Part shown: positions 4,387-62,806 of the stretch, in pieces
Layout: each line of letters begins with the position of its first letter
How positions within the stretch are numbered: position 1 is the stretch's first letter
Assembly: GCA_018221205.1 (NCBI GenBank)
Contig: JAAOYF010000046.1
Span: 1,999-65,998 of the forward strand
Length of the DNA: 64,000 bases
From: Candidatus Woesearchaeota archaeon
GTDB lineage: Archaea > Nanobdellota > Nanobdellia > Woesearchaeales > WJIZ01
Direction of reading: 5' to 3'
Position numbers and translations under genes: made by a program
Notes under the pieces: model-generated
Database searches by the model: none
The model's input: only the letters and a program-made list of their open reading frames with translations
What the model was told of the DNA's origin: nothing

Positions 4387-4467
4387 CACTTTTTGAAACG
4401 TAATATTTATATAACAGTTGTGATATTTTTATTACATATGTTCCAAAAAAGTAACAGGTATAAGATT

Positions 4468-4971: not shown

Positions 4972-4972
4972 A

Positions 4973-5377: not shown

Positions 5378-5428
5378 ATGCAGCTATCTCTTACATTATA
5401 GGTAATTTCCTTGTTATTTCTTCTCTTT

Positions 5429-5613
5429 ATACTTACAAAATAGAATAGGGTTCTTGATAATACTTACAAATAGGAAAATTTCCAAAACATTTATATAGAG
5501 AGATTGCTAAAAGTACTTACAAAATAGGTTACTTAGTATAGTAATTCGTAGCTTACTTACAAATTAGGTAAAAAATGGAGAAGATTCATACTCAGATACT
5601 TACATATAGGGGG
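5429..5613 (+). promoter_or_regulatory. Array of 5 direct repeats of the motif (A)TACTTACA-N2-5-TAGG upstream of the cassette-1 regulator gene; a sixth degenerate copy, CTTACATTATAGG, lies upstream at 5391-5403
   Basis: Copies at about 5429-5449, 5461-5474, 5514-5536, 5554-5574 and 5597-5613. The same motif recurs upstream of the cassette-2 and cassette-3 regulator genes. Confidence 0.6.
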
Positions 5614-5658
5614 GAGTTAGAATAAGTAGAGGCACTATAGTTGGCTAAACGTAAGGGG

Positions 5659-6237
5659 ATGACAGAGAAAACTCCTGTCTTTGCTAATGAGAGTTCTGTT
5701 TTGCAATTAGTCAACTCTGAATCTGATTCTATTACTGAGTCTCTTGCGTTGATTGAGGAGATATCTAAGAAGCATGGAGTAGATATAGGGCATATCACTG
5801 AGATTCTTGAGCACAAGGACAAATACATTGTTCTTCCTGTAGGTTTGTTCAGGAGTAAACTTGGTCCTTTAGAAGCAGTTGTCGGGTATATGAAAGAAGT
5901 TTTGGACCTTAATCTTTCTCAGATTGCACGTTTATTGAACAGAGATGAGACCACCATATGGACAACCTATCAAAATTCTTGGAAAAAAGGGAAGATCATT
6001 GTTGATCTAGAGCTGAAGGATGTTGATTTTGGTGCTTTGAAGATCAAGAAAGAGAACTTTGTTGTTCCCTTATCTGTTTTTGCCAATAGAGAATTGTCTA
6101 TTCTTGAGGCTTTATGTGTGTACTTACGTGAGAATCATGGTCTGAATTATACTATGTTAGGGAAATTGCTAGAGAGAAATGAACGGACTATCTGGACGGT
6201 AGTCAGCAGAGCAAAGAAAAAGTGGACAGAGAGATAG
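5659..6237 (+). CDS. Cassette-1 regulator, a small protein with two tandem sigma-70 region-4 / HTH_10 (Bat-type)-like HTH units
   Basis: Two repeats match L..LE..V.yl.e..gLsy..iA.LL.RdeRTiWT...RAkKK (LGPLEAVVGYMKEVLDLNLSQIARLLNRDETTIWTTYQNSWKKGK and LSILEALCVYLRENHGLNYTMLGKLLERNERTIWTVVSRAKKKW). An AAGGGG motif sits 4 nt upstream of the ATG at 5659, and the ORF track uses a TTG at 5641. Paralogs lie at 36056 and 46478. Confidence 0.6.
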   Translation: MTEKTPVFANESSVLQLVNSESDSITESLALIEEISKKHGVDIGHITEILEHKDKYIVLPVGLFRSKLGPLEAVVGYMKEVLDLNLSQIARLLNRDETTIWTTYQNSWKKGKIIVDLELKDVDFGALKIKKENFVVPLSVFANRELSILEALCVYLRENHGLNYTMLGKLLERNERTIWTVVSRAKKKWTER

Positions 6238-9200
6238 TCAAGCGGATAGTGCAAGAGAGCAAAGAGATGCATGAATGCTCTCGCTCTAAAGTCAAGCTTA
6301 GCTCTAATCTTTTTGCCAATTATGCGAAGAAGAAGAAAGGAAAGATCTCTGAGGAGGAATATGTCGGCTACCTGAAGAAAAAGCATAACGGCCGCACACT
6401 GGATGAATGGATCACTGAAGCGCATAAGCATGGTGAAGAGACGAACAAAGTGTTCCATCAAGATTTCAATTCTTTGGTGAGTTCTTTATCCAGTCCTCGC
6501 TTCACTATGGCTGCGATTATCTTATTGGCCATCTTCTTCCTGCAGTTCTTCACTCCAGGCATCATTGGCTTTGTTACGTTAGAAGAGGCTAATGTGACGA
6601 TTGAGCAAGAGTTTACAGCAAATGCAACGTTTGTTCTTGACGTAAAGAATATCCGCTATCTTGGCTTGCAAGGATATGCAAGCAATGACTTTTCGGGAAG
6701 GGTTTATTTAGATGATGGTGTGCAGAGATATGTTCTTTTAGATTACCTGAGCAAAGAGCTTAGACAAACAGTTCCTGATGCTACAATTGATTTTGAACTG
6801 GTTAAAATAGATATCTCTGATGAAGTGAAGGGCATCGAAGTCCAGGCTGATTTTGATGATGATTCTTTGGCTTGTACAATTTATACCATCGAGAGTGATT
6901 CTGCGACCAATCTTTGTTATGGGTATTCAGGATGCTGCGCATTCATGAATGTTCCTCAGACTGAAGAGCAATGGGATGAGCCTTTGTATGTAAACAAAGG
7001 GAAGTTCGGTGCTGGAGACAGGAATCTGGTGAAAGCACAAGTCGTTTGGGCAAATTATAGTTTAGATCCAGAGAATGCTTATTTTGATCTTGAATATAGT
7101 GATATTATCGGAGTTCCAGTCAATGTCTATTCACAGCTTAGGTTTGTTGATGAATGTGGAGGTGCCTGTTTAATTCAATCTGCTAATCAAGACCATACTT
7201 TAGTTGTTGAAGTGCATTCAGGAAGTTTGTATCTGTCAAATTACAGCTTCAAAGTTGTCGATAAACCGAATAGTCCGCCAGTCTTTACTCCGGTTCCGAA
7301 TATTACTATCAGCCCTCCACGGCCTTTCATCCTGGATTTGAGAGAGTATCTCTCTGATACTGATGGGGATACCTTAAAATTGAGTTATTTCGATTCTCCT
7401 GGATTGATTATTGATTTTGTTGGTATGAATGCTGTCATCCGGGTTGATGATAACTTTACTGGTAGGACTTTTACTTTTTTCACTGCGAATGATTCTGAGT
7501 TGATCGCTATCTCGAATATCATTGAGATTAGTTTAAGTAAGAATGCGACTGTCATTGAGACTCCTAAAAAGGATATCTTTGTTTCTGGACAAGTTGAGAT
7601 CGGCAAGCCTGTTACCTGGAGCCGGAGAGTAGATGTTGCGGATATTTTTGGAGAGTTCAGAGTGAATATCTCTGGGGAAGCGTATAATGTCACGGTCAAG
7701 AAAGTGTTCAATGAGACTTTTGAAGAAGTCTCAGGGGCCAATTTAGAGGTTGTAGAGGATACATTACGTCGAAATATCGCCCGCTTTAAGGAGGATGTTG
7801 CTGATAGGAGGGTTGCTAAGGCATTTGAGAGGCAGCGAGGTATTTTTAGGGATGAACCTATTGATGATGTTGAACTTGTCGTTATGGACCTTTCTCCTGA
7901 GATTGAGATCAGTTTTGAGACTGATGGTCCAGAAGTTGTTGAGGAGATCATCAGTGAGAGTGTGAAGAGAGTTACCATCAGTTCAACTGTGCATTATACT
8001 GATATTCTTTCTTATGCTGATATCAAAGACAGCCCTCAAAGCAGGATTAAGCTCTATTGGTTGGTTAATGGAAGCAGGCAGATTGTTTCTGATGTTACGT
8101 ATGAGGACAGGAACAATAATTCCCTTATTGACAGGATTTATTGGACTGTCCCTTCTCTCAGTTCTCAGACGTATGAGATCATCTTGATCACAAAAGCAGA
8201 TCATCTGGATGCGAATAGGAGCTTTATTGCAGATATCTATGAGTATGTCAAGGAAAAAGATGGTAATTGGAGTTACGGAATCAATGATTCCCAATATGTA
8301 AGAGTGACTTTTGAGCAGGCCTTGGATAATTCCAAGGATATTACTTTATATGCTCGAAGTTTAGGCAGTTCTTCTGTTGAAGTCTATACAGAGAATAATG
8401 ATACTTTGATCACTTCCTTTACTGATATCTCCTCTGAAGACTGGTATAAAGTCTTTTTGACTGAATTAGAAGGAAGCCATGATGTGTTTGACCTTAGAGT
8501 TGTAGGGGATAGTGTTGAGTTCGATTATATTGTCGATCCGGTCGGGCAGGAGAATGTTTCACAGTGGAACAAGACATTCGATGGAACCGGTGGTAGTGAT
8601 ATGGCCAATTCTATCGCTATAGATTCTAACGATAACATCTATGTTGTCGGTGATGGGACTAATATTGTCAGTAGTACGAGCGAGGGTGATTGGTGGATCA
8701 AAAAATTCAACTCCTCAGGCAGCGAAGATACTACTAACTGGAACAAAAGTATTGATGGCGTAACTGGAAAAGATAGTCCCACATTTGTTGCCCTTGATTC
8801 ACAAGACAATGTCTATGTTGTTGGCTATGGTACTAATCTCTCTTCCAGCTCTTCTAATTGGGACTGGTGGATCAAAAAATTCAACTCCTCAGGTAGCGAA
8901 GATACCACCAATTGGAACAAGACGTTTGACGGAGCAGGAAAGGCTGACCAAGCCAGGATAGTTGTCATAGATTCTAATGATAATATGTATGTAGGTGGAA
9001 GTGGATTTAATATTACTGAATCAAATCAAAAAGATTGGTGGATCAAGAAATTCAATTCTTCAGGCAGCGAGGATACTACAAATTGGAACAAATCATTTGA
9101 AAGTTCTGCAGCAACTGATTATCTTCAATCTCTTGCGATAGATAGCAATAACAATCTCTATGCTGGGGGACAGTTTTCACTCGATTTGCTTATCAAAAAA

Positions 9201-12200
9201 TTCAACTCCTCAGGCAGCGAAGATGCTGTCAATTGGAACAAATCTATTGTGGCAGCTACAGGTTCAGCTTTTTACGGTCTGTTCACTGATTCCAACGACA
9301 ATGTCTATGCAGGAATGTCTTCAAATGTCGTCGGTGTCCAGAGCGAGGATGATTGGTGGATCAAGAAATTCAATTCTTCAGGCAGCGAAGATGTTGTTAA
9401 TTGGAACAAAAGCTTTGATGAGGGAACTGCTTGGGCATATGATTATCTTAACTTCATTGCTGTCGACGCAAATGATAATGTTTTCGCTGTTGGGGATATC
9501 GACACTGGCGCAGCAGGCTATAATGATTGGTGGATCAAAAAATTCAACTCCTCAGGCAGCGAAGATGCTGTCAATTGGAACAAGACTTTCAATGCGGGCA
9601 CGAATAAATATGACAGCGCAACAGGTGTTGCCTTTGACAGCTTGAACAATGTCTATGTTTCGGGCTATGGGCAGAATGTTATCAGCGGCACTTCCAGCTA
9701 TGATTGGTGGATCAAGAAGTTTGAAGGTCATCCCATACTTGATACTTCTGCTCCAACTATACTCTTTGTGAACAAGACTGAAGCGAATGGATCCACTATC
9801 ACTGTAAATTATGCTGAGATCAATGTAAGCATCACAGAACTCAATCTGGATGCATTTACCTGGAATTGGAACGGGACGAATTATACGATGTATGATGATA
9901 GCCTGGTGTTGATGCTCAATTTTGACAATGTCTCGGCTCTTGGTGAGAGCAATACATATGTTATTGATGCGAGCAAGCAAAACAATAATGGGCTAGTGTA
10001 TGGAAATGCCTATCCAAATTCTAGTGGAAAATACAGGGGATCATTCGAATTCGGAGGCAGCAGCTCAGATTTTATCAATTTCAGCTCAAATTCAAGCCTT
10101 GATGACCTCAATAACGGAGGATTGACCTTTTCCGCATGGTTATACTTCAGGTCCAGCGGAGGGTTAGACGTCATTTTCAGTAAAGATGCATGGACCAGCG
10201 GATTGATGACGTTTTATATTTCTGATGGAGGAGCCCGAACGCTCCGGTTTATCAAAGATTCTCCGGATCCAGACGTTCGCGCTGACTGGAGCGGAATTAT
10301 CGATCTCGATGAATGGGACCATTATGTGCTTACCTGGAACGGCAGCAACATATCAAGCTCGATTTCGCTCTACAAAAATGGAGCAGAGATTGCGCCATCA
10401 TCAGAGCAAAACGGAAGTGTTCAAACCTGGTCAGATGCAGAGACAGACTTTCTTCTGGGAAGACAGTTCGACGGATTTATGGACGATATCATGCTCTTCA
10501 ATACATCCCTCTCTGCTTCTAAGGCGAAGCAGCTCTATTACTCTAGCCTACAGAAATACGATGCAAACAAATGGGGTTTCTATTCCAATCAAAGCAGTTT
10601 AGCAGATGGCACTTATACTTATCAAGCATATGTGAATGATAGCTTCGGCAAGGCAAATGCTACTGAGTTAAGGACACTCTATGTCGAGGCAGAAGCTCCC
10701 TCAATCAAATTTGTCAATCTTACTGTCGCCAATGGGACTGTGCACATCAAACCACATATCGAGGCGAATGTCTCTATCATCGCAGACGATTTCAGTGATT
10801 TTATCTGGAACTGGAACGGGACCAATTATACGTTCTATGATGATTCATTATCCTTGATGCTCAATTTCGATAATGTTTCTGCTTTAGGAGAGAATGACAG
10901 CCTGGTTGTCGATACCTCTCCTTATGGTAAAAATGGCACTGCCTACGGCAATGCAACACCAAATGTTACTGGCAGGTTCGGAAGAGCATTTTCTTTTGAT
11001 GGTGATGGAGACTATGTTTCTATGGGAACATCGAGTGTCTATAATTTCACTAATGCATCCAATATCACGATTTTGGTATGGGTTTACGCTTATTCTTTGC
11101 CAAGCTATGGGGAGATCATCAACAAGGGCAATACAGAACCAGGCTCTACCAGACAGAATTATGCTATTCAGAGCCAGGATCAGAATATCTCTTTTTTCTA
11201 TCGAGATAGTGCTAATACTGCTTGGGTGGAATATGTGACAGATGCTAGTGTGCTCTCGACAGGATCTTGGCATCATATCGCCATCACTTACAAATTCGGC
11301 ACAGGAAGCTCTGCTAAGATATACGTCAATGGAGCTGAGACATCTGCAACCTGGAGTGGAGGAACAGGCAATGAGGATCCTATGCAAAATGATGAAGAGC
11401 TCTGGATTGGTGCAGTTGATAATGGTGGTGATGACGTGATAGATGAGGAGTGGACTGGGAGAATAGATGGGGTGCGTATGTATAACCGAAGCCTATCATC
11501 GTCAGAAGTCCAACAACATTATTTCTCTAATCTTCGGAAGTATGACACTGATAAATGGAGTTTCTATTCCAATCAGACCAACCTCACCTTAGGCACCTAT
11601 ACGTTCCAGGCATATGCGAATGATACGTATGATAATCCCAATGCGACTGAATTAAGGACGGTTGAGTATAGGGTGAATCCTTATTATGGGAAATTCAGCC
11701 TTCCTCCGACAACCCACTTTAATGTCTCTGCTGATCTTTCGAATATATGTAATGCCACTTTAGCCATCAATGCTATTGGCATGATTGAGTGGAATAATTG
11801 TGTTGATGCGCGGATTGCTAATTTTGATACGTATGTCAATCTTAGTTTCAACAAAGTAAGTGTTGATCCAGTTAATTTAGACTCAAGCTTCAATAGTTCT
11901 GCTAATATTACTCTCTTTTACGTTAATCTTACTAATCCTATCATCCAAAAAGATGGTGCCTATTGTCCTAGCTGTATCATCTTAAACAATGATGGAAATA
12001 ATATCACGTTCAATGCGAGTTCTTTCTCTTCTTATTCTGCTACTGAGAGAACTAATCTTTCAATCTGGGACCTTTCTGATTCACAGACAAGCTATGCTAA
12101 TTTCACCCAGTTCTATGCGAATTATACGAATGCATCAGGTACGATAATTACTACTGGCTATTGTGAGTTCAGACATAATAAGACAGGAAGATGGGCTGCT

Positions 12201-15200
12201 CTAGGGAATATGAGCCTTGGTCCTGGATTGTATAACTGGACTGGTGATTGCGGTTATACTGCAGGAAGGAGCTGCATGCCAGTAGGAAATTATTCTTTTA
12301 ATGTCTCTTGCTTTGATCCTTCTGGTAGTAATGATAACTTAAGTTCGGTTGATAACATTGTTGTTACTGATTATAGCACTTCTTTGGCTATTGAAAATGG
12401 GTCAAGCAGCTATAGCACTGCCCGGAGTGCATATTTCTATGCGAATTATACGACGAGCCATCAGTTCAGCCAAGGGTATGGTGCAGAGATCGGCAGAGTC
12501 ATGCTTAATGTGTCTGGCTTGACACAAGTTAGTACGGTGGATTTCTTCGACTGCCAGAACACTGGAAAAAGGGATTGCATGGTCATCTCTTATCCTTTCG
12601 GCAATGTGACTGTCTTCTATGCAAATGGGAGCCAATACTGGTCCTATCTCGTCACTGGCGGGCAGACTGATGGTGTCGGCAATGGCATTGCTATCGGAGA
12701 TTTGGATAGTGATGGGTATTTCAACGATATCGCTGCTCCCACTACTGATGGTCCGAATTTTATTGTCCTCAATGAGACCGGAGATCTTGTGTTCCAGAGC
12801 AGTTTCGGGGAAATAGCGCAAAATGCTCAGGTCATCGGCATCGGCGATCTGGATGGCGATGGTATAGATAATGATATAGTAGTAAATGCTGGGTCGGAAG
12901 AATTCGATGGCTTTGCAGCATTCAATACCTCTGATGGAAAAACGTGGAACAATAAGTGGAATTACACCGAAGGAGGTGGTTCTAGTTCTGCTGGTCGAAC
13001 GATCCTTATGTATGATTTTGCTGGCACAGCCCATGATGAGGTTGTCGCTAATTGGTTCTTGGGCAGTTGCTGTGAAGCAGATAATAAAGTGGTCTACGGC
13101 AATAATGGATCACTTTTCTTCAATCTTTCAGGTTTTCAAGTCCAAGCAACGAGTCTATTGACCATTGATGTCGATCACGATGGTAAGATGGAATTACTTC
13201 AGTCGGGCTACAATGAATTCAATGTCTGGCTAGCGAACAGTACTGAACTCTGGGATAAGTCTTTCTCAGGCTATTCGTATGATGCGCAGGTTGTTGATCA
13301 GGATAGTGAGGGGTGGGATGATGATATTATCCTTCCTCGTCGTGTGTACCAGCAGTCGGCACTGTTTTTTGAAGCGTATGATAATAGCAGCAATCTTGTC
13401 TGGAGCGTCCAGCTCTCTGATACTACTGATGATCTCTACTCTATAGCTGTTTCTGATATTGATGGGGACGGTATTGAAGAGATTCTTATGGGATCCAATC
13501 AAGGATGGCTCTATATGTTCAATCTCTCTGGTAATATGAGCTGGAGCGAAAATGCTAGCTTGGGCACTATCGGTTCTAAGAATGATCCTTCGCCTGGCAT
13601 TGATCCAGGAGACATCACTGGAGATGGACTGCCTGACTTCTTGGTCGGCTTTGGTGATGGTATCTTCAAAGTGTATCAGGATGTCGGCTGCACTATCGAG
13701 TATAATGACAGCACTGCAGACATGACCTGGAATGAGACGCTCAATAAATGGCAGGCGAGCCGCGTGTTTAGCTCTACTGGTACTTGGGAGTATAATATAA
13801 CATGCTCCAAAGGAGGATATACTAACCAGATTATCTCTTCCACAATTTCCATCAGGGATGAAGCTGCAATAATTAATGAAAACAATACACAGCCTTTGAT
13901 TCCAAACTACAACCAGAATGTAAGCATTTATGCAAATGTAACAGATGCCACCGACGATATCAGCTGGGTAAACTTCACATTGCAAAATCCATCAGGAACA
14001 AATGTAATCAGTTATGAAAACGGAACACAGACAGGAGATATCTGGAATTCAAGTTCTTATATTGTTGATGAAATTGGTACGTGGCTATGGTGGATTAATG
14101 CTTCTTCGTCAGACGGCACCAAAGCAAACAGCTCAGGCTCCTTTACTATCCCTGATGTAAATTTGACTTTTTATTCAAACGAAACCAATACAACTGCTTT
14201 CAGCTTCTTAAACGGCACCTTTACCAATATAAGCTATTCCACCAGTAATAAAGCCATTAGCTTGATTCCTGGCAGAAACAAAGGGAATTACCTCTCTGAT
14301 GTCTTCAACGCCTCTACAAATGCAACATGGGTAAATATTAGCTGGGTTAGCAACAATTTGGAAATTAATCCTAAGGAGCCCCTGGTCAAGGATATGGTGC
14401 TTCTCATGCATTTGAACAATGATTCAGGATTTGGGGAAAACAATAGTTATGTTAAGGACTTTTCTTCATATGGAAATGATGGAACGTGTTCAAATTGTCC
14501 TAAATTTGTCGGCACAGGCTATTTCCAAAAAGCTGCACAGTTTAATGATTCATCATCTAATCAGCTGAACATTCAGAATGACGACAGCATTAGCTTTGCC
14601 AGTGGAGAGACCATTGCAATCTCTTTTTGGGTGAATAAAACAAAGGAACAGGCAAATCAGGCAGTATTGGCTAAAGTAGGCAACAACAACAACGATTATT
14701 TCAATTACTATATTGGAGTAAAAAGTTCTACAGGGGCTTTCAGATTTCAGTACCATAATACTAGCGGAGATATTAATTCATGGAACGGTTCCTCGGGAGC
14801 CATGGCAATGTCATTAAATAAATGGGTTCATTTTGTCATGGTATATACTTATGGTGATGGTCCATCATTTCAGTTATTTAGAAATGGCATTAATGTAACC
14901 TCTCAGGGAGGATGGACATACGGAGACGGCTCAGGGGCGCCAAGTACCAATACAAACACACTCAAAATCGGCAGGGCAGGAAATTGGTGGGGGCACATGA
15001 ACCATGCCAAAATCGATGAACTAGTCATGTGGAACAGAACATTATCAAAAGAGGAAATCTATCAACTTTATTACCGTGGAGCACAAAGACTAAACCTCTC
15101 AATTAGAAGCTGCGACGACTCTGCCTGTTCAGGAGAATCATGGACAGCTATTGATGATTATTCTTCGCAATCAATTGGAATTGCAGACAACTACTATTTC

Positions 15201-18200
15201 CAGTACAATGCAAGCTTCAACACAACAAACATAACTTATTCTCCAAAACTCTATAATATCACAATCAACTATTATTCAGACCAGATACAGCCGGGAATCA
15301 CATTAATCTACCCGCAAAACGACAGCTCATTGAATACCAGCTCAATAAACTTCAACTGGACAACAGCAGACAATTACCATTCAACATTAACCTGCAACCT
15401 AACAATAAACAGTGCTGTAAATATTTCTAATATTATTGCCGGCACATCAACTTATACAAATTATACTGTCAATGGCTTTGCAGAAGGCACATATCTCTGG
15501 AATGTAACCTGCATAGACGGCTCCAGAAACTCAAACACCTCTTTGACTTACAATTTCACATATACTCCTCCTCCGGACTACTTCCCGGGCTACTGGAACA
15601 ATGCTACAAATTCACCGGACAAAATTCATCAGAATGTTTACTTCTGGTTTAACTGGAGCGACGATAATGGATTAAGCCACTACATCTTCTCATGGAACGG
15701 CACCAACGGAACATGGATGAACGATACATCTGTAGTATTTACAGGACTAGTTAATCAATCAAACACAAGCAAATTAATCAACCTATCTGGAGGAAATACA
15801 ATAGGCTGGAGATATTATGCAAATGACACAAGCAATCAATTTAATTTCACTCCAATATACACTTTTATAGTAAGCAATACAACAAACCTTACTATAACAG
15901 ATTTATCAGACACGCAGACAGTCTATGCAAATTTCACGCAGTTCTACGCTAATTATAGCCATGATGACATATCTATCTCTTCAAATGCCTATTGCGAATT
16001 CAGGCATAATAAGACAGGGGTCTGGAAAACGTTAGGCAACATGAGTTATGATTCTGGCAGTGGATTGTATAACTGGACAGGCGACTGCGGCTATTTGGCT
16101 GGACATTCTTGCATGCCAGTAGGAAATTATTCTTTTAATGTAAGCTGTTTTGATTTATCTGGGGGTTATGATAACCTGAGCAAAGTAGATAGTGTTGTTG
16201 TCACTGATTATCCAACTTCACTAATTCTTGAAAATGGCTCTGATAGTTATAATCTCCTTTCAGTAGCATACTTCTATGCGAATTATACAAGGGATAATGG
16301 TTTTGGAGTGAATGCCCCCCCGGGACAGGAGATAGGGAGGGTGTTCTGGCGCAGCAATGATTATGAGAAAAATGCGGGTGGTGGGGTTATTGCTGCTCTT
16401 GACCTTGATGAGGATGGAAAAAAGAATGATATTGCTGCTGCTATGAGCAGGACATTTGCTAAAGATGGACTCCTTGTTGCCTTCTACTCAAACACTACAG
16501 AGGCATGGAACTATACAAGCGGCATAAACATTGATGACTTGAAAACAACAGACCTTGACGGGGATGGGTATGCGACCAACCTCTTGTTCAATACTTATCT
16601 TGACAATTTCTTTGTGTTCAATAGTACAGGCATGCAGTATTGGAATGCTTCATTAGAGGAATCTGTATCAATCTCTAGTGTAGGGGATGTTGACGGAGAC
16701 GGAAACAATGATATCCTTGTCTGGCGGCGCAATAATCATAGTGCATATAATAAATCTGGTGATTTGATATGGATAAAGAATCATACTGCCGGAACAGTAG
16801 CAAGGGAAATCGCTTTCGGCGACCTTGATAACGACGGCAAATCAGACGAGTTTGCAGTAGCATGGGGCATTGCATCTATGATAGTCTTTAATGAATCAGG
16901 GGATGAAGTATGGAAAAAAAACACAGGAGGAAGTGGATTCAGTGTTGCATGGGGGGATTTTGACGGGGACGGCTATAAGGATGATATCGCACGGGGAGAT
17001 AATTATGGTGCACTCAGGTTCTATAATGCGAGCGGCGATGCAATTGATGTTGTCACAGGCAACAGGCCTTATGAATTAATTGTAGTTGATTATGACTCAG
17101 ATGCCATTGATGATATTATCGCAGGCGTGCAGTACGGCAATGTCACTCTCTACAATGGCACGCTCGATGCACAATGGGTGTTCGATACTGCACAAGATGT
17201 CTATCATGTGCTTGCCGAGGATGTAGACGGCGACGGCATTCAGGAAGTCATTGTAGGTGATGCAACTGGTATAGTTCATTTGCTTTCTTTTAATGGAAGC
17301 CATCGCTGGAGCCAAGGCACAATAGAGAGCGGAATGGGAACAAGTGATGAAGCAATGGCTGTTCTGGATTTCAACAATGACGGATTGCTTGATATAGGGA
17401 CTGTGTCATACTATGGATTCATCAATGTCTATCAGGATGTCTCCTGTGTTATGGCATTCAACGACTCCTCAAAATACAACATGACTTGGAATAATTCATT
17501 GAATAAATGGCAGGCGAACAGGACATTTAGCTCTTCTGCGACGTATGACTACAATATAACATGCTCCAAAGGAGGATATACACAGCAACTCGGCACTTCT
17601 CAAATCAAGATAGGCTCGATACCTGTCATTAATAAGAATTATACCATTCCTACGATGCCTTTCTATGGACAAAATGTCACTATACAAGCGAATGTAACTG
17701 ATGATAATAATAATATCCGCTCAGTCAACTTCAGTTTAGTCGGTCCTTCAGGAATATGGTATATCAACTATACAAACGGGACTAACTTCAACAATGATAT
17801 GTGGAATTCTTCTTTATTTGAGCTGGGTGAGTCCGGGACATGGAGCTGGTACATCAATGTCACTGATGATGATGGATATATCACCTCGAGTTATGGCAGT
17901 TTTGTTGTTTCGGAGAACCCACCGAATGTAACTTTGCTTTATCCATTGAATATCAATGTTAGCCATACTCGTATTATAGGCTTTGTCTATAATGTTTCCA
18001 GCCCGATAGATATTTCTTCATGTTCATTATATATCCATAATATCCTGAATGATACTGACAGTTCTGTAACTGAAAACATCAACCAGACTTTTATCAAAAC
18101 CCTTAATAATGGAATATATAACTGGACTGTCGGATGTATTGACAATACAGATCAAGCTGTGAATGCAACCTTTGGATTCTTTAATATCAGTGCAGATGTC

Positions 18201-21200
18201 CTTGTGAGTGAGAATTTAAATCCCTCAAGCATCTTTGAAAATACGCCAACTAATATCTCTGTTTCCGGACATATCAACCTGTCCAATGGGGAGAATGTGA
18301 GCAATGCGAACATCCTCATCTATTTCAATAGCTCGCTTATCAGCGTTGCGACAGGCCAGACCTATACAGATTGGATGAATTACAGTTATCATTACCGCAC
18401 ACTGATTAATGTTTCACAGGCAGCATCGGCAGACCTCAATAATACTCTCTATCTGCTGAACATCTCAACAGACAGATTTATTGCCGCCGGCCGGATGAAC
18501 TCTAACTGCAGTGATGTGAGATTCACGGATGTCAACGGCGCAAACCTCAGCTTTGTACTGGTGTATGGAACATGCAATACCACAAATACACATTTCTTTG
18601 TATGGTCCAACTTAACAGGAAATGCAAATACTTCTCTGTATATGTATTATAATAATCCAGGGGCTTCTTATGCCTCATTGAGTAATCCTGACCCTACTCT
18701 AAAAGCATGGTATCTTTTTGATAATGAGTCTACTTATGGGGAGAATAACACTCATATCTTTGATTTCAGTGGGTATGGTAATAATGCTAGTTGTTCAAGT
18801 ACTTGTCCTGGATATAATTCATCTGCACAATTTGGAGGTACGTTCAATTTTGCAGGCTTTGATACTTATTTTAATGCTTCTCATAGTGAAGCATTAGATA
18901 TCAATGGATCTGCTCTTACCATTACCGCTTGGCTCTACCTCCGACAGACTGGAGCGGATGATGCCATTATCGCTAAAGCTTGGGAAACTGGCGTAAGTGC
19001 TGGTTCAATCTATCAATATGCTGTTGAATGGGATTCTAGTCCAAATGGGATTGATTTCTTTATCGGCAGGCCGGGTGGTGCAGGCCTAACAGAAGTAACT
19101 ACGACAAGTGCACCTTGGGCGGATAAATGGTTGCATTTTGCAGGAACCTATAATGGAACTCATATGGCAATTTATGTAAACGGCATCTTGAATGCAACAA
19201 CTGCTTATACAGAAGGAATTGTGAATCGGACGACACCCTTGATTATTGGAGGAGATTATCAAGGAGAACAGAATTTTGATGGTATGATTGATGATTTGCG
19301 ATTATATAACAGAACATTAAGTGCTGATGAAATATATTCCTTTTTTGCTGATAAAACTCTTTATTATGTATCTAATAATAGTTATACAGCAACTGATTCT
19401 GATGGAAATTACAATTATACTTTTGCTGTTAACGCAGGAGCCGGTAGCTATCCTGTCACGGTGAATCTTACGTATCGGGGAATGATTGGGAACAATACAC
19501 AATATCTTACTGTCAGTGAGAATAGTATCAATCTGACAGAATCCTTGAATCCAAGCAGCATTGATGCTGATACGATGACGAATGTCTTTATCTCTGGCCA
19601 AGTTAACTGGACAAACAGGACTGCTGTCACCAACACCCCAATTGAGATCTGGTTCAATGGTTCTGCTTATTTCTATAATGAATCTGGATTATTGGGCAAT
19701 GAAAGTACATGGTGGGATACTGATTGGAAATATCGTGTGAAGATTGCGTATGAACTGAATGTTACTTCTAGTCTGACCGATACGATCATTCTTGTCAATG
19801 CTTCTACTGCCAGCTACATCTCCTCGGGAAAAATGAATTCAGATTGCAGCGATGCACGATTTGCAGATAGTCTTGGAAGAAAGCTACCTGCTACGGTTGA
19901 AACGTCTACGTGCAATTCTGCTGGAACAATCTTCTGGGCATGGGCAAATTTGAGTGCGAGTACAAACACAACGATGTATATGTACTTTGGCAATAGTGGG
20001 GCTTCATTAGATACAAGCTATACAGTGCCTGATTCTGATCTTCTTGTTTATTATCACTTTGATAATTCATCTGCTTATGGCGAGAATGATAGCATAGTGT
20101 ATGATTTTTCCAGGAATGGAAGAAACGGAACGTATTATGGCAATGCATTCAGTAATTCTACTGGTTATTATGGGGGGATGCTTCAAATGGATGGTGTAGG
20201 AGATTATGTCAATACTACTGATATCTCTTGGGCGCAGACTGACAGCTTCACGATGATGTTATGGTTCTATAAATATTCTGCAACTAATGGCGTATTGATC
20301 GGTAAACATCACACTGCCAGTCCATTTGAGTTTTCTTTCTATACTGGGACAAATAGTGTCGACTTTGCTGCATGGAGCAGTCCCGGTGACACTAGCCTCG
20401 CTTTCAATGGCCAGGTGAACATCTTTGCTAATACTTGGTATCACGTCGCAGTTACGTACAATGGTTCTGTAGGTAAGATGTATGTCAACGGCATGAATAG
20501 AAGCAACGACACTTCTGATAAAACAATCGGAGATGGCACCCTGAACTTGCAGGTCGGATCAGGGTATCATCCTACCACTGCCGGAGTTGCTTACTTGAAT
20601 GGCTCAGTTGACGAAGTCCGAATCTATAACAGAAGTCTTTCTCATGATGAAATCAAAGCAATTTATAATGCCACTAAAGGCTATTTCCTTGGCAACCAAA
20701 GTTTGACTGTAACTGATAGTCTTGGTAAATATAATTATACTCTTGCTGTCAATAAATTTGCAGGAACCTACCCTGTTAAAGTGAATATGACTTCTAATGG
20801 AAAGGTTGGCAACAATACCCAATATTTGACAGCGTCATATGTAACTACTGTAACGCTGAATAGTCCAGAGAACGATTATGTTGCGCAAGATAGTATTACG
20901 TTTAATTGTTCAGCTGTCAATCTTGGAGGATTGAACAATATCACGCTGTATTGGAACTATTCTGGCAATTTTGTGAGCAATGGGACAGTCAACATAAGCA
21001 GTACTGCGAATGGGACGACCTTTACTAGGCAGTTGCCTAATCCTCGGGAGAATGTCTTATGGAACTGCCTTGCCTATGGGACGCAATCGAACTCGTTTGC
21101 TTCTGCTAACAGAACATTCAATGCCCGTACCATAACTGTTACTGAAACATTATCGCCAAGTTCGTTCAATGAACTTACCTCTACTGATGTCTCTATAACG

Positions 21201-24200
21201 GGAAACATGAACTGGAGCAACAATACTCCTGTCAATAATATGCCTATAGAGATATGGTTCAATGGAAGCAGGTATTGGTACAATGAGTCTGGTGTCTTAG
21301 GAAATGAAAGTGAGTGGCTCAATGACAGCTGGAAGTATAGGTTGAAGGTGAACATCGATTCAGTCACTACTACTGATCTTAATGATACCCTTGTGCTGGT
21401 TAATGTAACTACTCTTGATTATATTGCTCAAGGAAAGATGCAGGATGACTGTTCTGATGCACGATTCGGAGATTCTTATGGCAATGAACTTGGATTCAGT
21501 GTGGAAACGTCTACCTGCAACACTTCTCTGACTCATTTCTGGGTATGGACCAATCTGACTGGCAGTGTGAATACGTCGATCTATCTTTATTTCGGGAATG
21601 TAGATGCTGGCTTTGATCTGGATTATACTAATCCTGATGATAGGCTGCTCATCTACTATCATTTTGATAATTCTTCGGCTTATGGCGAAAATGATGCTCT
21701 TGTGTATGATTTCAGCAGGCATGGAAATAATGGTACTATAGGTAGAGGAGATGAATTCATCAATACAAGTGGCAGATTCGGAGGGGCAATGCAGCTTGAT
21801 GGGGATCTTGATTATGTCAATACAACAGACCTCTCGTGGAAGACGAATGAGAGCTTCAGCATGCTGGCATGGTTTAAGGCTTTTGATAATACTGCGGGTG
21901 TGATCTTTGGAAAGCCAACGTTTGAATATTCACTCTATACTGAAGCCGATGGATCAATCATCTTTATCTATTGGAAATCATCTGGCTTAGAAGCGATAAC
22001 TTTAGCTGAATATAATGCAGGGATTGTTCCTTATCGATGGTATATGGCAGCAGTGACGTATAATGGATCTGAAGGAAGGCTTTATATCAATGGAACTTTG
22101 AGACAGACTGATAATGCTGTTACAGGAACACTTGAGAATAAGGCCAATAACTTGCTTATCGGCTCTGGTTATCATGGTGCCCTCGGCTCTACTGGAAACT
22201 TCATTGGATTGATCGATGAGGTTCGTGTCTATAATCGAAGCCTTTCTGAGGATGAAGTCATGGCGATCTATAATGCTACTCGTCGCTATTATCTCGGTAA
22301 CCAAAGCCTGACCATGACCGATTCAATCGGCAATTATGATTATACTCTTACTGTTAATATGCCAGCTGGTACTTATCCTGTCAAAGTGAATGTCAGTTCT
22401 GGTAGTGTTGTAGGGAATAATACAAAATATCTTACTCTTACTTCTATCCCTACTAATTTGAGCATCTCAGATCTGTCTGACAGCCAGACTGTGTATGTTA
22501 ATTATACGACTTTCAGTGCTAATTATTCGTATAATTCTGCAGCCATTATTGATGGTTATTGTGAATTCAGGCATAATGCAACTGTTAGTTGGAGTTCTGG
22601 ACGGAATATGACATATAGTCCTGTTACTAAGAAATATGAAATTATTGCAGATGGCAAATATGATTCAATGATGGAAAGCCAGGAGAGGTGGATACTAACG
22701 CCCAATCATACTGTGAATCTTCTAGCCGGAGATTATTCGTACAATATCAGCTGTTTCAGCGATTATGATAATATCAGCAAAGTAGATGCCCTTTCCATCA
22801 GCGATTATTCGACAACTATGATCCTTAACAAGAGCTCATCTAATGTTACAGTGAATGCTCAAGTTAGTATCTATGCTAATTATTCTGGGCCATGGAATGA
22901 GATAGGCAGGCAGATATGGAACTTCAGCATCGGAACCAACGCCCTTGCAATAGAGGCTGCAGATATTGATAATGACGGTCTGATGGAGGTTGTTGTCGGG
23001 GGAAATACAGGAAAAATTACCCTTTACAATCACACAGGTGGACAAGTACTTCCACTTACTGGCATAGGTGATGGTTCAGTAAGTGATATTGAGATTATGG
23101 ATTTAGATGGAGACGGAATCAAAGAGATTATATATGGCACTAATGCAAATATCACTATTGTCAATGCAAGTTTTGATATACTTGCTAATGCGTACATAGG
23201 AGGTACAGTCAACACTATAGAGATAGGAAATTTTATTAACTCTAGTTTTATAGGCATAGCTGTTGGAACACAATCTGGAACTGATGAATTGAGGATATTT
23301 AATTATTCTAATGGGGATATCACGAGTCTTTGGAACTTTAATTATGATGATGCTATCTATTACGCTGTAATCGATCTTGCGGATATCAATAATGATGGTA
23401 TCATGGAAATCATCGCAGGATCCACAGGAAGCAATCTTACAGCATTCCTCGGAAATGGAACAGTTCTCTGGAATATAGATACTGGGAATTCGGTTAATTC
23501 TGTCGAGGCAGCAGATATCAACAATGACGGCAAAGTGGAGATTGTTGTGGGCAAGCATGATGAAACTGTTTTGATCTATAATTCAAGTGGCGATCAGATC
23601 GATATCGTCACTAACGCAGGGAATAATTATCCCTATGATCTGGAAATCAATGATCTTGACAATGATGGCAAGATAGAAATTATTTATGGAGATAGTGCAG
23701 GTGTGCTAAATATATTCAATTCCACTCTTGATTCTCAAGATTCTTATTCTAACGGTATCGGAATCAATGAAATAATCATCGCTGATATCAATCATGACGG
23801 AGTAAAAGAAATCATTACAGGCCACAGTGTAGGGACCAATGAAACAAGAGTGTTCAATTATACCAATGGAACTTTGTCAACACTATGGACATATGATTTT
23901 GGTAATACAATATATCAACACGACATAGCAGTTGCTGATATCAACAATGATGGTATCTATGATATGGTGGTTGGTTCTTGGAATACCATTGTTAGGGCAT
24001 TCCAGGATGTACAATGTAATATTGATTTTGGTTCTGGATATATTCCTATGGAATGGGATCCAAATGAAAACAGATGGGAATATAATCGATCATTTGTTAG
24101 CTCAGGCACTAAGCATTATAATGTCAGCTGTTCAAAGAATGCGTATGAAGCGCAAACTTTCCGCAGTAATGTCAGCGTAGCACAGACTGCTGAGTATAAT

Positions 24201-35884: not shown

Positions 35885-36055
35885 ATACTTACATATCAGG
35901 AGAGATTTTTGCCCGTTCCCTACGGTCACTTAAAAATCTCGTAAAATGCACTCTAGTGAGACATCGCTATCGCGAGTCTCACGGACTAGATACTTACATA
36001 TTAGGTAGTCGAGGTGAGATTGTAAGAGTATCAGATAACTTACAAATTAGATAAT
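35885..36055 (+). promoter_or_regulatory. Three copies of the ATACTTACA-N-TAGG motif upstream of the cassette-2 regulator
   Basis: ATACTTACATATCAGG at 35885-35900, ATACTTACATATTAGGTAG at 35989-36008 and ATAACTTACAAATTAGATAAT at 36034-36055, the last abutting the ATG at 36056. Confidence 0.55.
35902..35949 (+). repeat. Conserved 48-nt palindromic intergenic element, copy 1 (GAGATTTTT-gcccgttccctacggtcactt-AAAAATCTC-GTAAAATGC), followed by a second hairpin at 35955-35981
   Basis: A near-identical block lies at 46310-46358. It has a perfect 9-nt inverted repeat (GAGATTTTT/AAAAATCTC) with inner CCGT/ACGG pairing. The downstream GTGAGAC-N13-GTCTCAC is another inverted repeat. Confidence 0.6.
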
Positions 36056-36610
36056 ATGTTAAAAGACTTGAAAGAGCAGAAAGAGAAGAGGCTTGGTAAA
36101 GTGTATCTGCAGGAAAAGTCCTCTTTAGTGAAGCTAGACAGCCTGTTCTCTGAACTCTCTCAAAAGTATGGCATGGATTATCAAAATGTCGCTCAATTAT
36201 TGAGAAGATTCCAGAGCTATCTCACTATCCCTGCTTCATTGTTCAAGACACGAGTGAGTCCTTTGGAAGCAGTTGTATTATTCTTACACCTTAAGTATAA
36301 GTGTACACAGACACAGATGGCTGAAATCCTTCATAGAGACCATACGACTATCTGGACTACGCTAGATAATGCCTGGAAGAAGACAACCAAAGCACAATTT
36401 CTGCAAAGCATTGAGGAAAGCGAGATATTGATCCCTGTCCACCTGTTATCAAATAGAAGATTGAGCATCTTAGAGGTTGTTGCCTCTTATATCAAAGATA
36501 AATATAGTCTGAAATATCGGGAGATTGCTACTTTATTAGATCGGGATGATCGGACTGTCTGGACTGTTATCGATAGAGCCAGAAAAAAGCTTATAAAGAA
36601 TAGACGATGA
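36056..36610 (+). CDS. Cassette-2 regulator with tandem sigma-70 r4 / HTH_10-like HTH units (paralog of 5659 and 46478)
   Basis: VSPLEAVVLFLHLKYKCTQTQMAEILHRDHTTIWTTLDNAWKK and LSILEVVASYIKDKYSLKYREIATLLDRDDRTVWTVIDRARKKL. There is an ATGA overlap with giant-2. Confidence 0.65.
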   Translation: MLKDLKEQKEKRLGKVYLQEKSSLVKLDSLFSELSQKYGMDYQNVAQLLRRFQSYLTIPASLFKTRVSPLEAVVLFLHLKYKCTQTQMAEILHRDHTTIWTTLDNAWKKTTKAQFLQSIEESEILIPVHLLSNRRLSILEVVASYIKDKYSLKYREIATLLDRDDRTVWTVIDRARKKLIKNRR

Positions 36611-46309: not shown

Positions 46310-46358
46310 GAGATTTTTGCCCGCTCACTTCGTTCACTCTAAAAATCTCGTAAAATGC
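46310..46358 (+). repeat. Conserved palindromic intergenic element, copy 2 (GAGATTTTT-gcccgctcacttcgttcactct-AAAAATCTC-GTAAAATGC), followed by a GGAGC-tac-GCTCC hairpin
   Basis: Starts 2 nt after the stop of the 45484 ORF. Aligns with 35902-35949 over ~48 nt, and the 9-nt inverted repeat is perfectly conserved. Confidence 0.6.
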
Positions 46359-46411: not shown

Positions 46412-46484
46412 GTTTACTCATATATATTTACTTTAGGGTAATATTTATAAATAGATATACTTATATGTATATACTAGATGCCTA
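46412..46484 (+). promoter_or_regulatory. Degenerate TACTTA...TAGG motif copies upstream of, and overlapping, the cassette-3 regulator start
   Basis: TTTACTCATATATATTTACTTTAGGGTAATA and ATACTTATATGTATATACTAGATGCCTAGG, the latter spanning the ATG at 46478. Confidence 0.45.
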
Positions 46485-60181: not shown

Positions 60182-60182
60182 C

Positions 60183-62733: not shown

Positions 62734-62806
62734 ATCGATAGTGAGTAGATTGTGACTTAAAAACCTTGCCAAAAGAATTTTATAATGCAAGTTTTTCTTT
62801 GATGCT

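What the first reader, a model, noticed from the sequence alone, without database searches (positions are those of the whole stretch)
5429..5613. Array of TACTTACA-N-TAGG direct repeats upstream of every cassette regulator
Five copies of (A)TACTTACA(A/T)-N2-5-TAGG lie at 30-50-nt spacing ahead of the cassette-1 regulator, with a sixth degenerate copy (CTTACATTATAGG) at 5391-5403 just upstream. Three copies lie ahead of cassette 2 (35885-36055, the last abutting the ATG) and degenerate copies ahead of cassette 3 (46412-46484). Shared, iterated motifs in front of paralogous regulator genes suggest an operator array, for example autoregulation by the tandem-HTH protein, or a specialised promoter architecture. 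Iteration at roughly helical-repeat multiples would favour cooperative binding.
Basis: seen in the sequence. Interest (0 to 1): 0.65.

Follow-up and report, generated by a model that had tools for sequence, protein, structure and literature searches.

The report
Conserved operator arrays before giant genes
The repeats are real: they are the local form of a 17-bp site found in helically phased arrays around the promoters of small double-HTH regulator genes that head giant surface-protein operons in DPANN archaea, and because the site's variable half changes together with the regulator's first DNA-reading helix, the regulator very probably binds its own promoter.

Summary
Observation confirmed. 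TACTTACA occurs 8 times in the window against 1.2 expected, and 7 of the 8 lie in two intergenic arrays. Cassette 3 has two degenerate copies.

The window is from a Woesearchaeota (DPANN archaeon) contig. The motif is a local, asymmetric variant of a 17-bp palindrome, TACTTACA-W-TGTAAGTA.
- In 80 related loci, 87 of 89 strong matches lie within 600 bp upstream of homologues of the regulator.
- TACTTACA is about 70-fold denser there than elsewhere in those loci.
- Site spacings cluster at 21, 31-32, 42, 53 and 63 bp, which are whole helical turns.
- A TATA box ends 5-6 bp before many sites. In the window's orthologue group it ends exactly 16 bp before the third site.

The left half-site tracks the C-terminal HTH. 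The right half-site varies with the recognition helix of the N-terminal HTH. Single-domain and symmetric tandem proteins go with the perfect palindrome.

Best reading: an autoregulatory operator array that flanks and overlaps the promoter of each regulator-plus-giant-gene operon, probably repressive. Binding and the sign of regulation are inferred, not shown. I found no paper containing the site sequence. It is a new variant of a known kind of system.

The parts
5388..5404 (+). Cassette 1, site S0 (degenerate): CTCTTACATTATAGGTA
   Evidence: Lies 42 bp upstream of S1. An equivalent site at the same spacing is present in the orthologous arrays.
5430..5446 (+). Cassette 1, site S1: TACTTACAAAATAGAAT
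5461..5477 (+). Cassette 1, site S2: TACTTACAAATAGGAAA. The right half is shifted by 1 nt.
5490..5497 (+). Predicted TATA box TTTATATA, preceded by A-rich BRE-like AAAACA at 5484-5489. It ends 16 nt before S3.
   Evidence: Seen directly in the sequence. The same gaaaca-TTTATATA-16 nt-TACTTACA arrangement is invariant in orthologous loci L201, L203 and L205. The transcription start is predicted at about 5519-5522, inside S3, from the usual archaeal TATA-to-start distance. This is an inference.
5514..5530 (+). Cassette 1, site S3: TACTTACAAAATAGGTT. It overlaps the predicted transcription start.
5554..5570 (+). Cassette 1, site S4: TACTTACAAATTAGGTA. This is the best match to the window-type consensus and lies in the predicted 5' leader.
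5597..5613 (+). Cassette 1, site S5: TACTTACATATAGGGGG. It lies in the predicted 5' leader.
5641..6237 (+). Regulator 1: an N-terminal helical region followed by two sigma-70-region-4-like HTH domains. D1 spans residues 66-116 with helix RDETTIWTTYQNSWKK. D2 spans residues 143-194 with helix RNERTIWTVVSRAKKK. NCBI annotates the start at ATG 5659. Orthologues are called from the equivalent of TTG 5641, which follows a GAGG at 5629-5632.
6222..33725 (+). Giant ORF of 9167 aa (Laminin_G_3 x10, FG-GAP, CARDB, Big_13, DUF2341). Its start (GTG 6222, or the in-frame ATG 6267) overlaps or abuts the regulator's stop, so co-transcription is presumed.
35886..35902 (+). Cassette 2, site 1: TACTTACATATCAGGAG
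35991..36007 (+). Cassette 2, site 2: TACTTACATATTAGGTA
36037..36053 (+). Cassette 2, site 3: AACTTACAAATTAGATA. It ends 2 nt before the ATG.
36056..36610 (+). Regulator 2, a tandem-HTH paralogue. D1 helix RDHTTIWTTLDNAWKK is the same class as in regulator 1. Its stop overlaps the ATG of the 2085-aa ORF 36607-42864 in an ATGA overlap.
46415..46431 (+). Cassette 3, site 1 (degenerate): TACTCATATATATTTAC
   Evidence: Lies 43 bp upstream of site 2.
46444..46451 (+). Predicted TATA box TTTATAAA, ending 6 nt before cassette 3 site 2. This is the canonical family geometry.
46458..46474 (+). Cassette 3, site 2: TACTTATATGTATATAC. It ends 3 nt before the ATG, which predicts a leaderless transcript.
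46478..46951 (+). Regulator 3, a tandem-HTH paralogue with a divergent D1 helix (GRSKQGVWQSLSHARKK). Its stop overlaps an ATG at 46948 of the next ORF (to 48075). The 2998-aa ORF 48312-57308 follows.

Best explanation
Each array is a set of operators for the tandem-HTH protein encoded immediately downstream. One site is 17 bp. The C-terminal HTH (D2) reads the invariant upstream half, TACTTACA. The N-terminal HTH (D1) reads the variable downstream half, which in cassettes 1 and 2 is A/T-A/T-T-A-G-G-T.

The sites lie on one face of the helix, spaced by whole turns, on both sides of the promoter and over it. In cassette 1 there are three sites upstream of the TATA box, one over the predicted transcription start and two in the leader. 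Cooperative occupancy would then control transcription of the regulator gene and of the translationally coupled giant surface-protein gene behind it.

A site lying between the TATA box and the start, or over the start, is where archaeal repressors exclude RNA polymerase. The most likely net effect is therefore negative autoregulation, giving a thresholded control of a very costly operon. Cassettes 1 and 2 share site type and D1 class and are predicted to cross-regulate. Cassette 3 has its own right half.

Status of each step:
- Shown: the sites, their conservation, phasing, promoter geometry and the protein-site covariation.
- Inferred: actual binding, the transcription start and the sign of regulation.
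For: Significance in the window: TACTTACA 8 against 1.2 expected; the composite motif 5 against 0.02 expected.

Conservation and location:
- In 80 loci retrieved through the protein, 87 of 89 matches of at least 13/16 to TACTTACA-N-TGTAAGTA fall at -600..0 of the regulator gene.
- TACTTACA density is 2.14 per kb there against 0.029 per kb elsewhere.
- The most enriched 8-mers upstream, found without a prior, are all pieces of the motif.
- A motif-first scan of metagenomes for the exact palindrome gave 120 loci. 32 carry a homologue directly downstream of the site or sites.

Phasing: spacing peaks at 21, 31-32, 42, 53 and 63 bp, with Rayleigh p about 1e-6 at a 10.5-bp period.

Promoter geometry:
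- A strict TATA box ends 4-7 nt, with a peak at 5-6, before 59 of 291 sites.
- In four genomes of the window's orthologue group the order is conserved: 42, 31 and 53 bp spacings with TTTATATA exactly 16 nt before the next site. The invariant alignment columns are the sites and the TATA box, while the spacers diverge.

Covariation:
- Both helices canonical (R-D/N-D-R-T-I-W-T-V/C): perfect palindrome, 28 proteins and 80 sites, right half 6.9/8.
- D1 'RTIWTTY': right half ATAAGTA.
- D1 'TTIWTT' (window regulators 1 and 2, and L001): AWWTAGGT.
- D1 'RNIWH': TAACGTA or TAATGTA.
- D1 without W: TAATATATA.
- D2 non-canonical: TACTTACA sites mostly absent.
- Fisher tests: D2 canonical against site presence, 50/56 against 5/19, p = 5e-7. 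D1 canonical against palindromic right half, 11/15 against 2/35, p = 2e-6.

The right half is more alike within a locus (0.64) than between loci (0.48). Flanks are near background (0.36 against 0.30), so the copies are not just recent duplications.

The protein is a DNA binder: two HTH domains above the Pfam Sigma70_r4_2 threshold; AF2 pLDDT 91; each domain matches sigma region 4 structures, including one bound to a -35 element.

Operon linkage: ATGA stop/start overlaps. 61 of 104 homologues are followed by an ORF of at least 800 aa or one running off the locus.

Precedent for repression at this position and for phased autoregulatory sites: PMC2995911.
Against: - There are no binding data, no mapped transcription start and no expression data.
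- Only about 20% of sites have a strict TATA box at the canonical distance. Cassette 2 has no recognisable TATA box.
- The covariation statistics treat loci as independent and are not corrected for phylogeny. The single-domain/perfect-palindrome association comes from a search that required the perfect palindrome.
- Several homologues with canonical helices have no site within 650 bp (L034, L035, L038, L062).
- 88 of the 120 motif-first loci have no detectable homologue. Most look unrelated, with varied GC, short contigs and some high-GC bacterial contexts. A few archaeal contigs (L113, L122, L193) carry paired palindromes next to other genes, so the site may also serve other targets or another reader.
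- Sites upstream of the TATA box could just as well activate.
Confidence: 0.75

Rival explanations
1. The same protein binds the same sites, but the array acts mainly as an activator, or as a concentration-dependent dual switch. Occupancy of the sites upstream of the TATA box would recruit TBP/TFB at low protein levels. Full occupancy, including the site over the start, would shut the promoter at high levels.
For: In cassette 1 and its orthologues, three to five sites lie upstream of the TATA box. Most sites family-wide have no TATA box directly upstream. Ss-LrpB works this way on three phased sites in its own control region (PMC2995911).
Against: The best-conserved positional feature is a site between the TATA box and the start, or over the start. 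In archaea this is the classical repressor position. Nothing here measures the sign of regulation.
Confidence: 0.3
2. The motif is a core-promoter or initiator element read by the basal machinery or by a lineage-specific TFB. On this reading the arrays are stacked promoters and the neighbouring regulator does not bind them.
For: There is a fixed 5-6 nt distance from a BRE/TATA unit. In some loci (L050, L051, L048, L037) every copy has its own TATA box. Orientation relative to the gene is constant.
Against: About 80% of sites lack a TATA box at that distance. The element is a palindrome in many genomes. It is essentially confined to this one gene family's upstream regions. Its halves covary with the adjacent protein's two recognition helices. 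None of the other intergenic regions of the window carries the motif: the only copy outside the arrays is a lone one in coding DNA at 184.
Confidence: 0.07
3. The repeats are recombination or transposition sites. The tandem HTH would be the DNA-binding module of a mobile or cassette-shuffling system. It gives weak Pfam hits to HTH_23 and HTH_38 and resembles the bipartite Tc3 DNA-binding domain.
For: Sub-threshold HTH_23 and HTH_38 hits. A weak Foldseek hit to the Tc3 bipartite domain. There are three paralogous cassettes with a shared 49-nt inter-cassette element.
Against: No transposase or recombinase catalytic domain was found in the cassette ORFs scanned. The sites sit only upstream of the regulator and in one orientation, not flanking a unit. 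Site positions relative to the TATA box and the start codon are conserved across genomes.
Confidence: 0.03
4. The motif acts at the RNA level, as a repeated element in the 5' leader, or it is an AT-rich chance pattern.
For: S4 and S5 are predicted to be transcribed. The region is AT-rich (GC 0.345).
Against: Shuffles never reach the observed counts. Half the sites lie upstream of the TATA box. The palindrome would form only a 6-7 bp A/U-rich hairpin. No Rfam family matched. Phasing at 10.5 bp is a property of duplex DNA.
Confidence: 0.02

Closest known systems
Ss-LrpB of Sulfolobus solfataricus: three regularly spaced palindromic boxes in its own control region
   Same: An archaeal transcription factor binds several helically phased sites upstream of its own gene. 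Binding is cooperative and the factor autoregulates (PMC2995911).
   Different: Ss-LrpB is an Lrp/AsnC protein with a RAM domain. It binds as separate dimers to 15-bp boxes and has three sites. Here the protein has two sigma-region-4-like HTH domains in one chain, 17-bp sites that may be asymmetric, up to nine or ten sites, and a downstream giant surface-protein gene. There is no Lrp Pfam hit.
LrpA (Pyrococcus furiosus) and MDR1 (Archaeoglobus fulgidus) repression
   Same: The operator lies directly downstream of the TATA box or over the start of the regulator's own gene or operon. RNA polymerase recruitment is blocked while TBP/TFB can stay bound (PMC2995911).
   Different: These are different protein families. 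The mechanism here is inferred from position only. The array also extends about 130 bp upstream and about 95 bp downstream of the predicted start.
Sigma-70 region 4 (Pfam PF08281) bound to the -35 element
   Same: Each HTH domain matches PF08281 above threshold, at 28-38 bits against a cutoff of 25.7. Each superposes on SigR, SigF and SigE region 4 with Foldseek probability 0.97-0.99 and rmsd 1.1-3.1 Å over 46-49 residues.
   Different: There is no region 2 and no whole-protein match to any sigma factor. The organism is an archaeon, which has no sigma factors. Two copies of the domain sit in tandem behind an N-terminal helical region.
Single-chain two-HTH DNA binders: MarA/Rob/SoxS of the AraC family, and the Tc3/paired bipartite domains
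   Same: One polypeptide places two HTH units on adjacent half-sites. The site can therefore be asymmetric and have an orientation. This comparison rests on my own knowledge, apart from the weak Foldseek hit to Tc3 chain 1u78.
   Different: There is no sequence membership: no HTH_18/AraC Pfam hit. Here the two units are clear duplicates of each other, and single-domain relatives exist that pair with the perfect palindrome.
Membrane-tethered one-component regulators of the ToxR/CadC type
   Same: In many relatives the same tandem-HTH module is the extreme C-terminus of very large proteins (up to 5919 aa in the search of protein cluster representatives). In the fused ORFs of the fetched loci it follows a hydrophobic stretch and a polybasic linker.
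   Different: In the window the regulator is a separate small protein. In ToxR/CadC the DNA-binding domain is an N-terminal winged helix. Topology and any release mechanism are untested here.

Membership tests
Sigma-70 region 4-like HTH domain (PF08281) | Sequence match above Pfam's gathering score | tested here: met
   28.3, 31.5 and 38.2 bits for the three regulators, against a cutoff of 25.7.
Sigma-70 region 4-like HTH domain (PF08281) | Region 4 fold | tested here: met
   AF2 model with pLDDT 91. Foldseek hits 5fgm, 8jzt, 2h27 and 1rio at probability 0.96-0.99, single-domain alignments only.
Sigma factor (functional family) | Region 2 (core-binding and -10 recognition) together with region 4 | tested here: not met
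   No Sigma70_r2 hit. NCBIfam sigma models score 16-29 bits against cutoffs of 43-323 and cover region 4 only. The host is an archaeon.
Autoregulatory operator array of an archaeal transcription factor | Specific sites concentrated in the regulator's own control region and conserved across species | tested here: met
   87 of 89 matches within -600..0; a 74-fold density excess; orthologous arrays with conserved site order.
Autoregulatory operator array of an archaeal transcription factor | The sites are bound by the product of the adjacent gene | tested here: inconclusive
   Supported indirectly by half-site/recognition-helix covariation. Physical binding is not testable with these tools.
Autoregulatory operator array of an archaeal transcription factor | A site overlaps the promoter between the TATA box and the transcription start, as for a repressor that blocks RNA polymerase recruitment | tested here: inconclusive
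   The TATA-to-site distance is fixed at 5-6 nt family-wide and at 16 nt in the window's orthologue group. The transcription start itself is predicted, not mapped.
Autoregulatory operator array of an archaeal transcription factor | Helical phasing of sites, consistent with cooperative binding | tested here: met
   Window spacings equal 4.0, 2.95, 5.05, 3.8 and 4.1 turns. Family-wide Rayleigh p is about 1e-6 at 10.5 bp. Cooperativity itself was not tested.
Lrp/AsnC, AraC/XylS, LuxR/GerE families | Family-specific Pfam domain | tested here: not met
   None of these families appears among the hits at E <= 0.01.
Transposase or site-specific recombinase system | A catalytic domain, with sites flanking a mobile unit | tested here: not met
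   No catalytic domain in the regulators or in the neighbouring ORFs scanned. The sites lie on one side only and in one orientation.

The most novel reading that the evidence does not exclude
The HTH module and the giant surface proteins may form one signalling unit. In many relatives the module is the cytoplasmic tail of a membrane-anchored giant protein. In the window it is split off but translationally coupled to the giant gene.

The arrays would then be the read-out of a feedback circuit that senses the state of the surface protein, such as export, assembly or contact with a host cell. The three cassettes share a left half-site but have cassette-specific right half-sites. They could form a cross-regulating switch that selects which giant adhesin an episymbiotic DPANN cell displays.
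Probability: 0.15. Interest if true: 0.8.

Novelty: new variant of a known kind. Interest (0 to 1): 0.62.

Why it matters
DPANN archaea such as Woesearchaeota are uncultured, have tiny genomes and devote a large share of them to giant surface proteins thought to mediate contact with hosts. As far as I know, and as far as my limited literature searches showed, how those genes are controlled has not been described.

This result defines a widespread, uncharacterised family of transcription factors. The search of protein cluster representatives found about 1,400 clusters at E <= 1e-10. It also gives their 17-bp site, the promoter architecture and a readable recognition code linking each HTH domain to one half-site.

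Each of these is directly testable with a purified 20-kDa protein and short oligonucleotides, with no need to culture the organism. The family also offers a natural series, from single domain to symmetric tandem, asymmetric tandem and fusion to a giant membrane protein. That series could be used to study how operators and regulators co-evolve.

Tried and rejected
- **AT-rich chance:** rejected by the shuffles and by location specificity.
- **Known RNA family or tRNA in the region:** none found.
- **Bacterial sigma-70 promoter reading:** the scan gave only weak 9/12 matches. It is irrelevant because the organism is an archaeon.
- **Sequence search against solved structures:** no hit.
- **Foldseek with the whole model:** only single-domain region-4 matches were convincing. 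The ParB/Noc and sigma whole-chain hits have TM-scores of 0.16-0.25 and were not used.
- **Literature:** no paper contains the 15-17-mer. Two keyword searches on Woesearchaeota/DPANN giant genes and regulators found nothing relevant.
- **Motif-first metagenome scan:** 88 of 120 loci have no homologue. On inspection most are unrelated organisms or short contigs. I treated them as background rather than as a regulon.
- **The shared 49-nt inter-cassette element:** examined as a possible part of the system. It is absent upstream of cassette 1 and from all 200 loci held at that point, so it was left out.
- **Flank comparison script:** it crashed on its third comparison. Only the first two printed results are used.

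Full report
**1. The observation**

- Upstream of the first regulator gene there are five exact copies of TACTTACA, at 5430, 5461, 5514, 5554 and 5597. Each is followed after 2-5 nt by TAGG or TAG.
- A degenerate sixth copy lies at 5388-5404.
- Three copies precede the second regulator, at 35886, 35991 and 36037. The last ends 2 nt before the ATG.
- Two degenerate copies precede the third regulator, at 46415 and 46458. The last ends 3 nt before the ATG.
- TACTTACA occurs 8 times in 64 kb against 1.23 expected, and no shuffle reached 8.
- The composite pattern occurs 5 times against 0.02 expected.
- Seven of the eight exact copies lie in two intergenic stretches that together cover about 350 bp.

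**2. The organism and the genes**

Regulator 1 is identical to a hypothetical protein of a Candidatus Woesearchaeota MAG. All relatives come from Woesearchaeota, Pacearchaeota and Nanoarchaeota bins. Some bins are labelled 'Methanosarcinales' in third-party assemblies. The window is therefore DPANN archaeal DNA, and promoters should be read as BRE/TATA promoters, not sigma-70 promoters.

The three regulators are paralogues at 34-35% identity.

- Each has two copies of a roughly 51-residue HTH domain that matches Pfam Sigma70_r4_2 above threshold.
- An AlphaFold2 model of regulator 1 is confident, with pLDDT 91 and pTM 0.79. It shows an N-terminal helical region followed by the two HTH domains.
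- Foldseek finds only single-domain matches, to sigma region 4, and no whole-protein relative.
- There is no sequence hit in the PDB.
- NCBIfam gives only sub-threshold region-4 matches.

Each regulator gene overlaps or abuts a very large ORF.

- The ORFs are 9167 aa, 2085 aa, and 384 aa followed by 2998 aa.
- In two cassettes the junction is an ATGA stop/start overlap.
- The 9167-aa protein is built of Laminin_G_3, FG-GAP, CARDB and Ig-like domains, which indicates a surface protein.

**3. The motif is a conserved 17-bp site**

I fetched 80 loci encoding relatives of the regulator. The window motif turned out to be a variant of the palindrome TACTTACA-W-TGTAAGTA.

- Of 89 matches of at least 13/16 in 456 kb, 87 lie within 600 bp upstream of the regulator gene, in 35 loci.
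- Exact TACTTACA is 2.14 per kb there and 0.029 per kb elsewhere.
- A k-mer enrichment run without any prior returns only pieces of this motif at the top.
- Copy number per locus ranges from 1 to 9.

I then ran the reverse experiment and scanned metagenome contigs for the exact palindrome. It returned 120 loci. 32 of them carry a homologue immediately downstream of the site or sites. The rest are mostly unrelated organisms or short contigs.

**4. Geometry**

Start-to-start spacings pile up at 21, 31-32, 42, 53 and 63 bp. At a 10.5-bp period the resultant length is 0.27, with Rayleigh p about 1e-6. The spacings are not all independent. The window's spacings of 42, 31, 53, 40 and 43 bp are all within 0.2 turn of an integer.

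A strict TATA box (TTTWWAWA) ends 4-7 nt, with a peak at 5-6, before 59 of 291 sites. It is often preceded by a purine-rich BRE-like gaaa. With the usual archaeal TATA-to-start distance, the 17-mer then fills the interval from about -17 to the start. In several loci the start codon follows the site by 3-7 nt, which predicts leaderless mRNAs. The window's cassette 3 has exactly this layout: TATA box 46444-46451, 6 nt, site, 3 nt, ATG.

Cassette 1 belongs to an orthologue group at 57-60% identity, for which I fetched three further genomes. All four share the same layout:

- sites spaced 42-43, 31 and 53 bp;
- gaaaca-TTTATATA exactly 16 nt before the next site;
- in L203, two more sites in the leader.

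In the alignment the invariant columns are the sites and the TATA box, while the spacers have diverged. In this group the site spans the predicted start at about 5519-5522. The array reaches from about -130 to about +95.

**5. Who reads the site**

The left half, TACTTACA, is far better conserved than the right half, and it always lies on the upstream side. Sorting proteins by the recognition helices of their two HTH domains gives a consistent picture:

| Recognition helices | Site found upstream |
|---|---|
| Both helices canonical (R-D/N-D-R-T-I-W-T-V/C-Y-x-R-A-K-K-K) | Perfect palindrome (28 proteins, 80 sites, right half 6.9/8) |
| D1 'RTIWTTY' | Right half ATAAGTA |
| D1 'TTIWTT' (window regulators 1 and 2, L001 and the orthologues) | Right half AWWTAGGT |
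| D1 'RNIWH' | Right half TAACGTA or TAATGTA |
| D1 lacking the tryptophan | Right half TAATATATA |
| D2 helix changed (RDQRNIW...) | TACTTACA sites mostly absent |

At locus level in the protein-first set:

- A canonical D2 predicts the presence of a site, 50/56 against 5/19, p = 5e-7.
- A canonical D1 predicts a palindromic right half, 11/15 against 2/35, p = 2e-6.

Single-domain relatives of 65-100 aa, which would have to act as dimers, sit behind perfect palindromes. That set was ascertained through the palindrome, so the association is biased.

Within a locus the right halves resemble each other more (0.64) than between loci (0.48). Flanks are near background at 0.36 against 0.30. The copies are therefore kept alike by something locus-specific rather than by recent duplication.

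The simplest reader is the adjacent protein, with D2 on the upstream half and D1 on the downstream half. These tests are not corrected for phylogeny.

**6. Mechanism**

What is shown is conserved, phased, promoter-embedded sites that covary with the neighbouring DNA-binding protein. From this I infer that the protein binds them cooperatively and controls its own operon, including the giant gene.

A factor bound directly downstream of the TATA box or over the start excludes RNA polymerase in the characterised archaeal cases, LrpA and MDR1 (PMC2995911). I therefore favour negative autoregulation.

The upstream sites leave room for an Ss-LrpB-like dual switch. Cassettes 1 and 2 share D1 class and site type, so cross-talk between them is predicted. 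Cassette 3 has a different D1 helix and a different right half.

**7. Comparison with known systems**

The domain is sigma-region-4-like, but the protein is not a sigma factor. It has no region 2 and the host is an archaeon. It is not a member of the Lrp, AraC or LuxR families.

Functionally it resembles archaeal autoregulators with phased operators. Architecturally it resembles single-chain two-HTH binders.

I found no paper containing the site sequence and nothing relevant on regulators of DPANN giant genes. This is a limited test. The family is large: 1,978 cluster representatives at E <= 1e-3 and 1,416 at E <= 1e-10.

**8. Verdict**

This is a new variant of a known kind of system, an autoregulatory operator array, belonging to an uncharacterised and widespread DPANN regulator family that heads giant surface-protein operons. 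The sign of regulation, the binding itself and the full set of targets remain to be tested.

Noticed in passing
L006, L016, L018, L020, L021, L055, L061 (about 500 nt before the HTH domains); proteins P0043, P0051, P0055, P0059, P0064 and others: In many relatives the tandem-HTH module is the extreme C-terminus of very large proteins, from about 800 to 5919 aa in the search of protein cluster representatives. In the fused ORFs of the fetched loci it follows a hydrophobic, transmembrane-like stretch and a polybasic run (RKKKKKK). This looks like a giant surface protein with a cytoplasmic DNA-binding tail. These forms have a changed D2 helix (RDQRNIW) and no TACTTACA sites upstream.
   Followed up: partly
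window 35901-35950 and 46310-46358: A 49-nt element, GAGATTTTTGCCCG..TCACT.TAAAAATCTCGTAAAATGC, is shared between the 3' ends of cassettes 1 and 2. It sits just after the last stop codon and before or among the next cassette's sites. It folds into a 9-10 bp hairpin followed by a second GC-rich hairpin (z = -3.7 and -2.4). It is absent from all 200 loci held at the time of the search. It may be an inter-cassette terminator or a trace of cassette duplication.
   Followed up: partly
L083-L200, for example L092, L150, L153, L174: Single-domain homologues of 65-100 aa sit behind arrays of perfect palindromes. L174 has seven exact copies, most of them 56 bp apart. This suggests the ancestral form is a homodimer on a symmetric site and that the tandem proteins are fused pseudo-dimers.
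   Followed up: partly
window 5641 versus 5659: The database protein starts at ATG 5659 (192 aa). Orthologues are called at 197-198 aa from a TTG equivalent to 5641, and a GAGG lies 8 nt upstream of that TTG. The annotated start may be six codons short.
   Followed up: partly
window 6222-33725, 36607-42864, 48312-57308: There are three very large ORFs of 9167, 2085 and 2998 aa. The first has about ten Laminin_G_3 domains plus FG-GAP, CARDB, Big_13 and DUF2341. Each is followed by smaller ORFs without Pfam hits, one of which has a weak, sub-threshold CARDB match.
   Followed up: partly
window 3005-3658, 4393-4971, 4934-5377: Nucleotidyltransferase genes lie just upstream of cassette 1: a DUF2204 gene, and a Polbeta/NTP_transf_2 gene with an N-terminal winged helix. 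The second overlaps a 147-aa ORF with no Pfam hit. The arrangement looks like a toxin-antitoxin pair of the MNT/HEPN type.
   Followed up: no
window 5311-5332 and 5401-5422: A 22-nt inverted repeat, 86% complementary with 68 nt between the arms, brackets the stop codon of ORF 4934-5377 and the degenerate site S0.
   Followed up: no
L203, L204, L206 (upstream of the regulator); L201, L202 (one gene further upstream): In the orthologous loci a divergently oriented HerA-like DUF87 ATPase gene lies upstream of the array. It directly flanks the array in L203, L204 and L206. In L201 and L202 an AAA_14/DUF4143 gene lies in between. The window has the nucleotidyltransferase genes there instead, so the array travels with the regulator and not with the upstream neighbour.
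   Followed up: no
L085, L110, L123 (high-GC contigs); L113, L122, L193 (archaeal-looking contigs): The exact palindrome also occurs, sometimes paired, in unrelated contexts. In high-GC bacterial contigs it lies next to -35-like TTGAC. In a few archaeal contigs it lies next to a CBS/HTH gene, an Lrp/AsnC gene or an asparagine-synthase-like gene. These could be convergent operators or trans targets.
   Followed up: partly
window 58005-61118: A MoxR AAA+ ATPase, a DUF58 protein and a VWA/BatA protein form an operon downstream of cassette 3. A Dus (dihydrouridine synthase) gene lies on the minus strand at 61819-62907.
   Followed up: no
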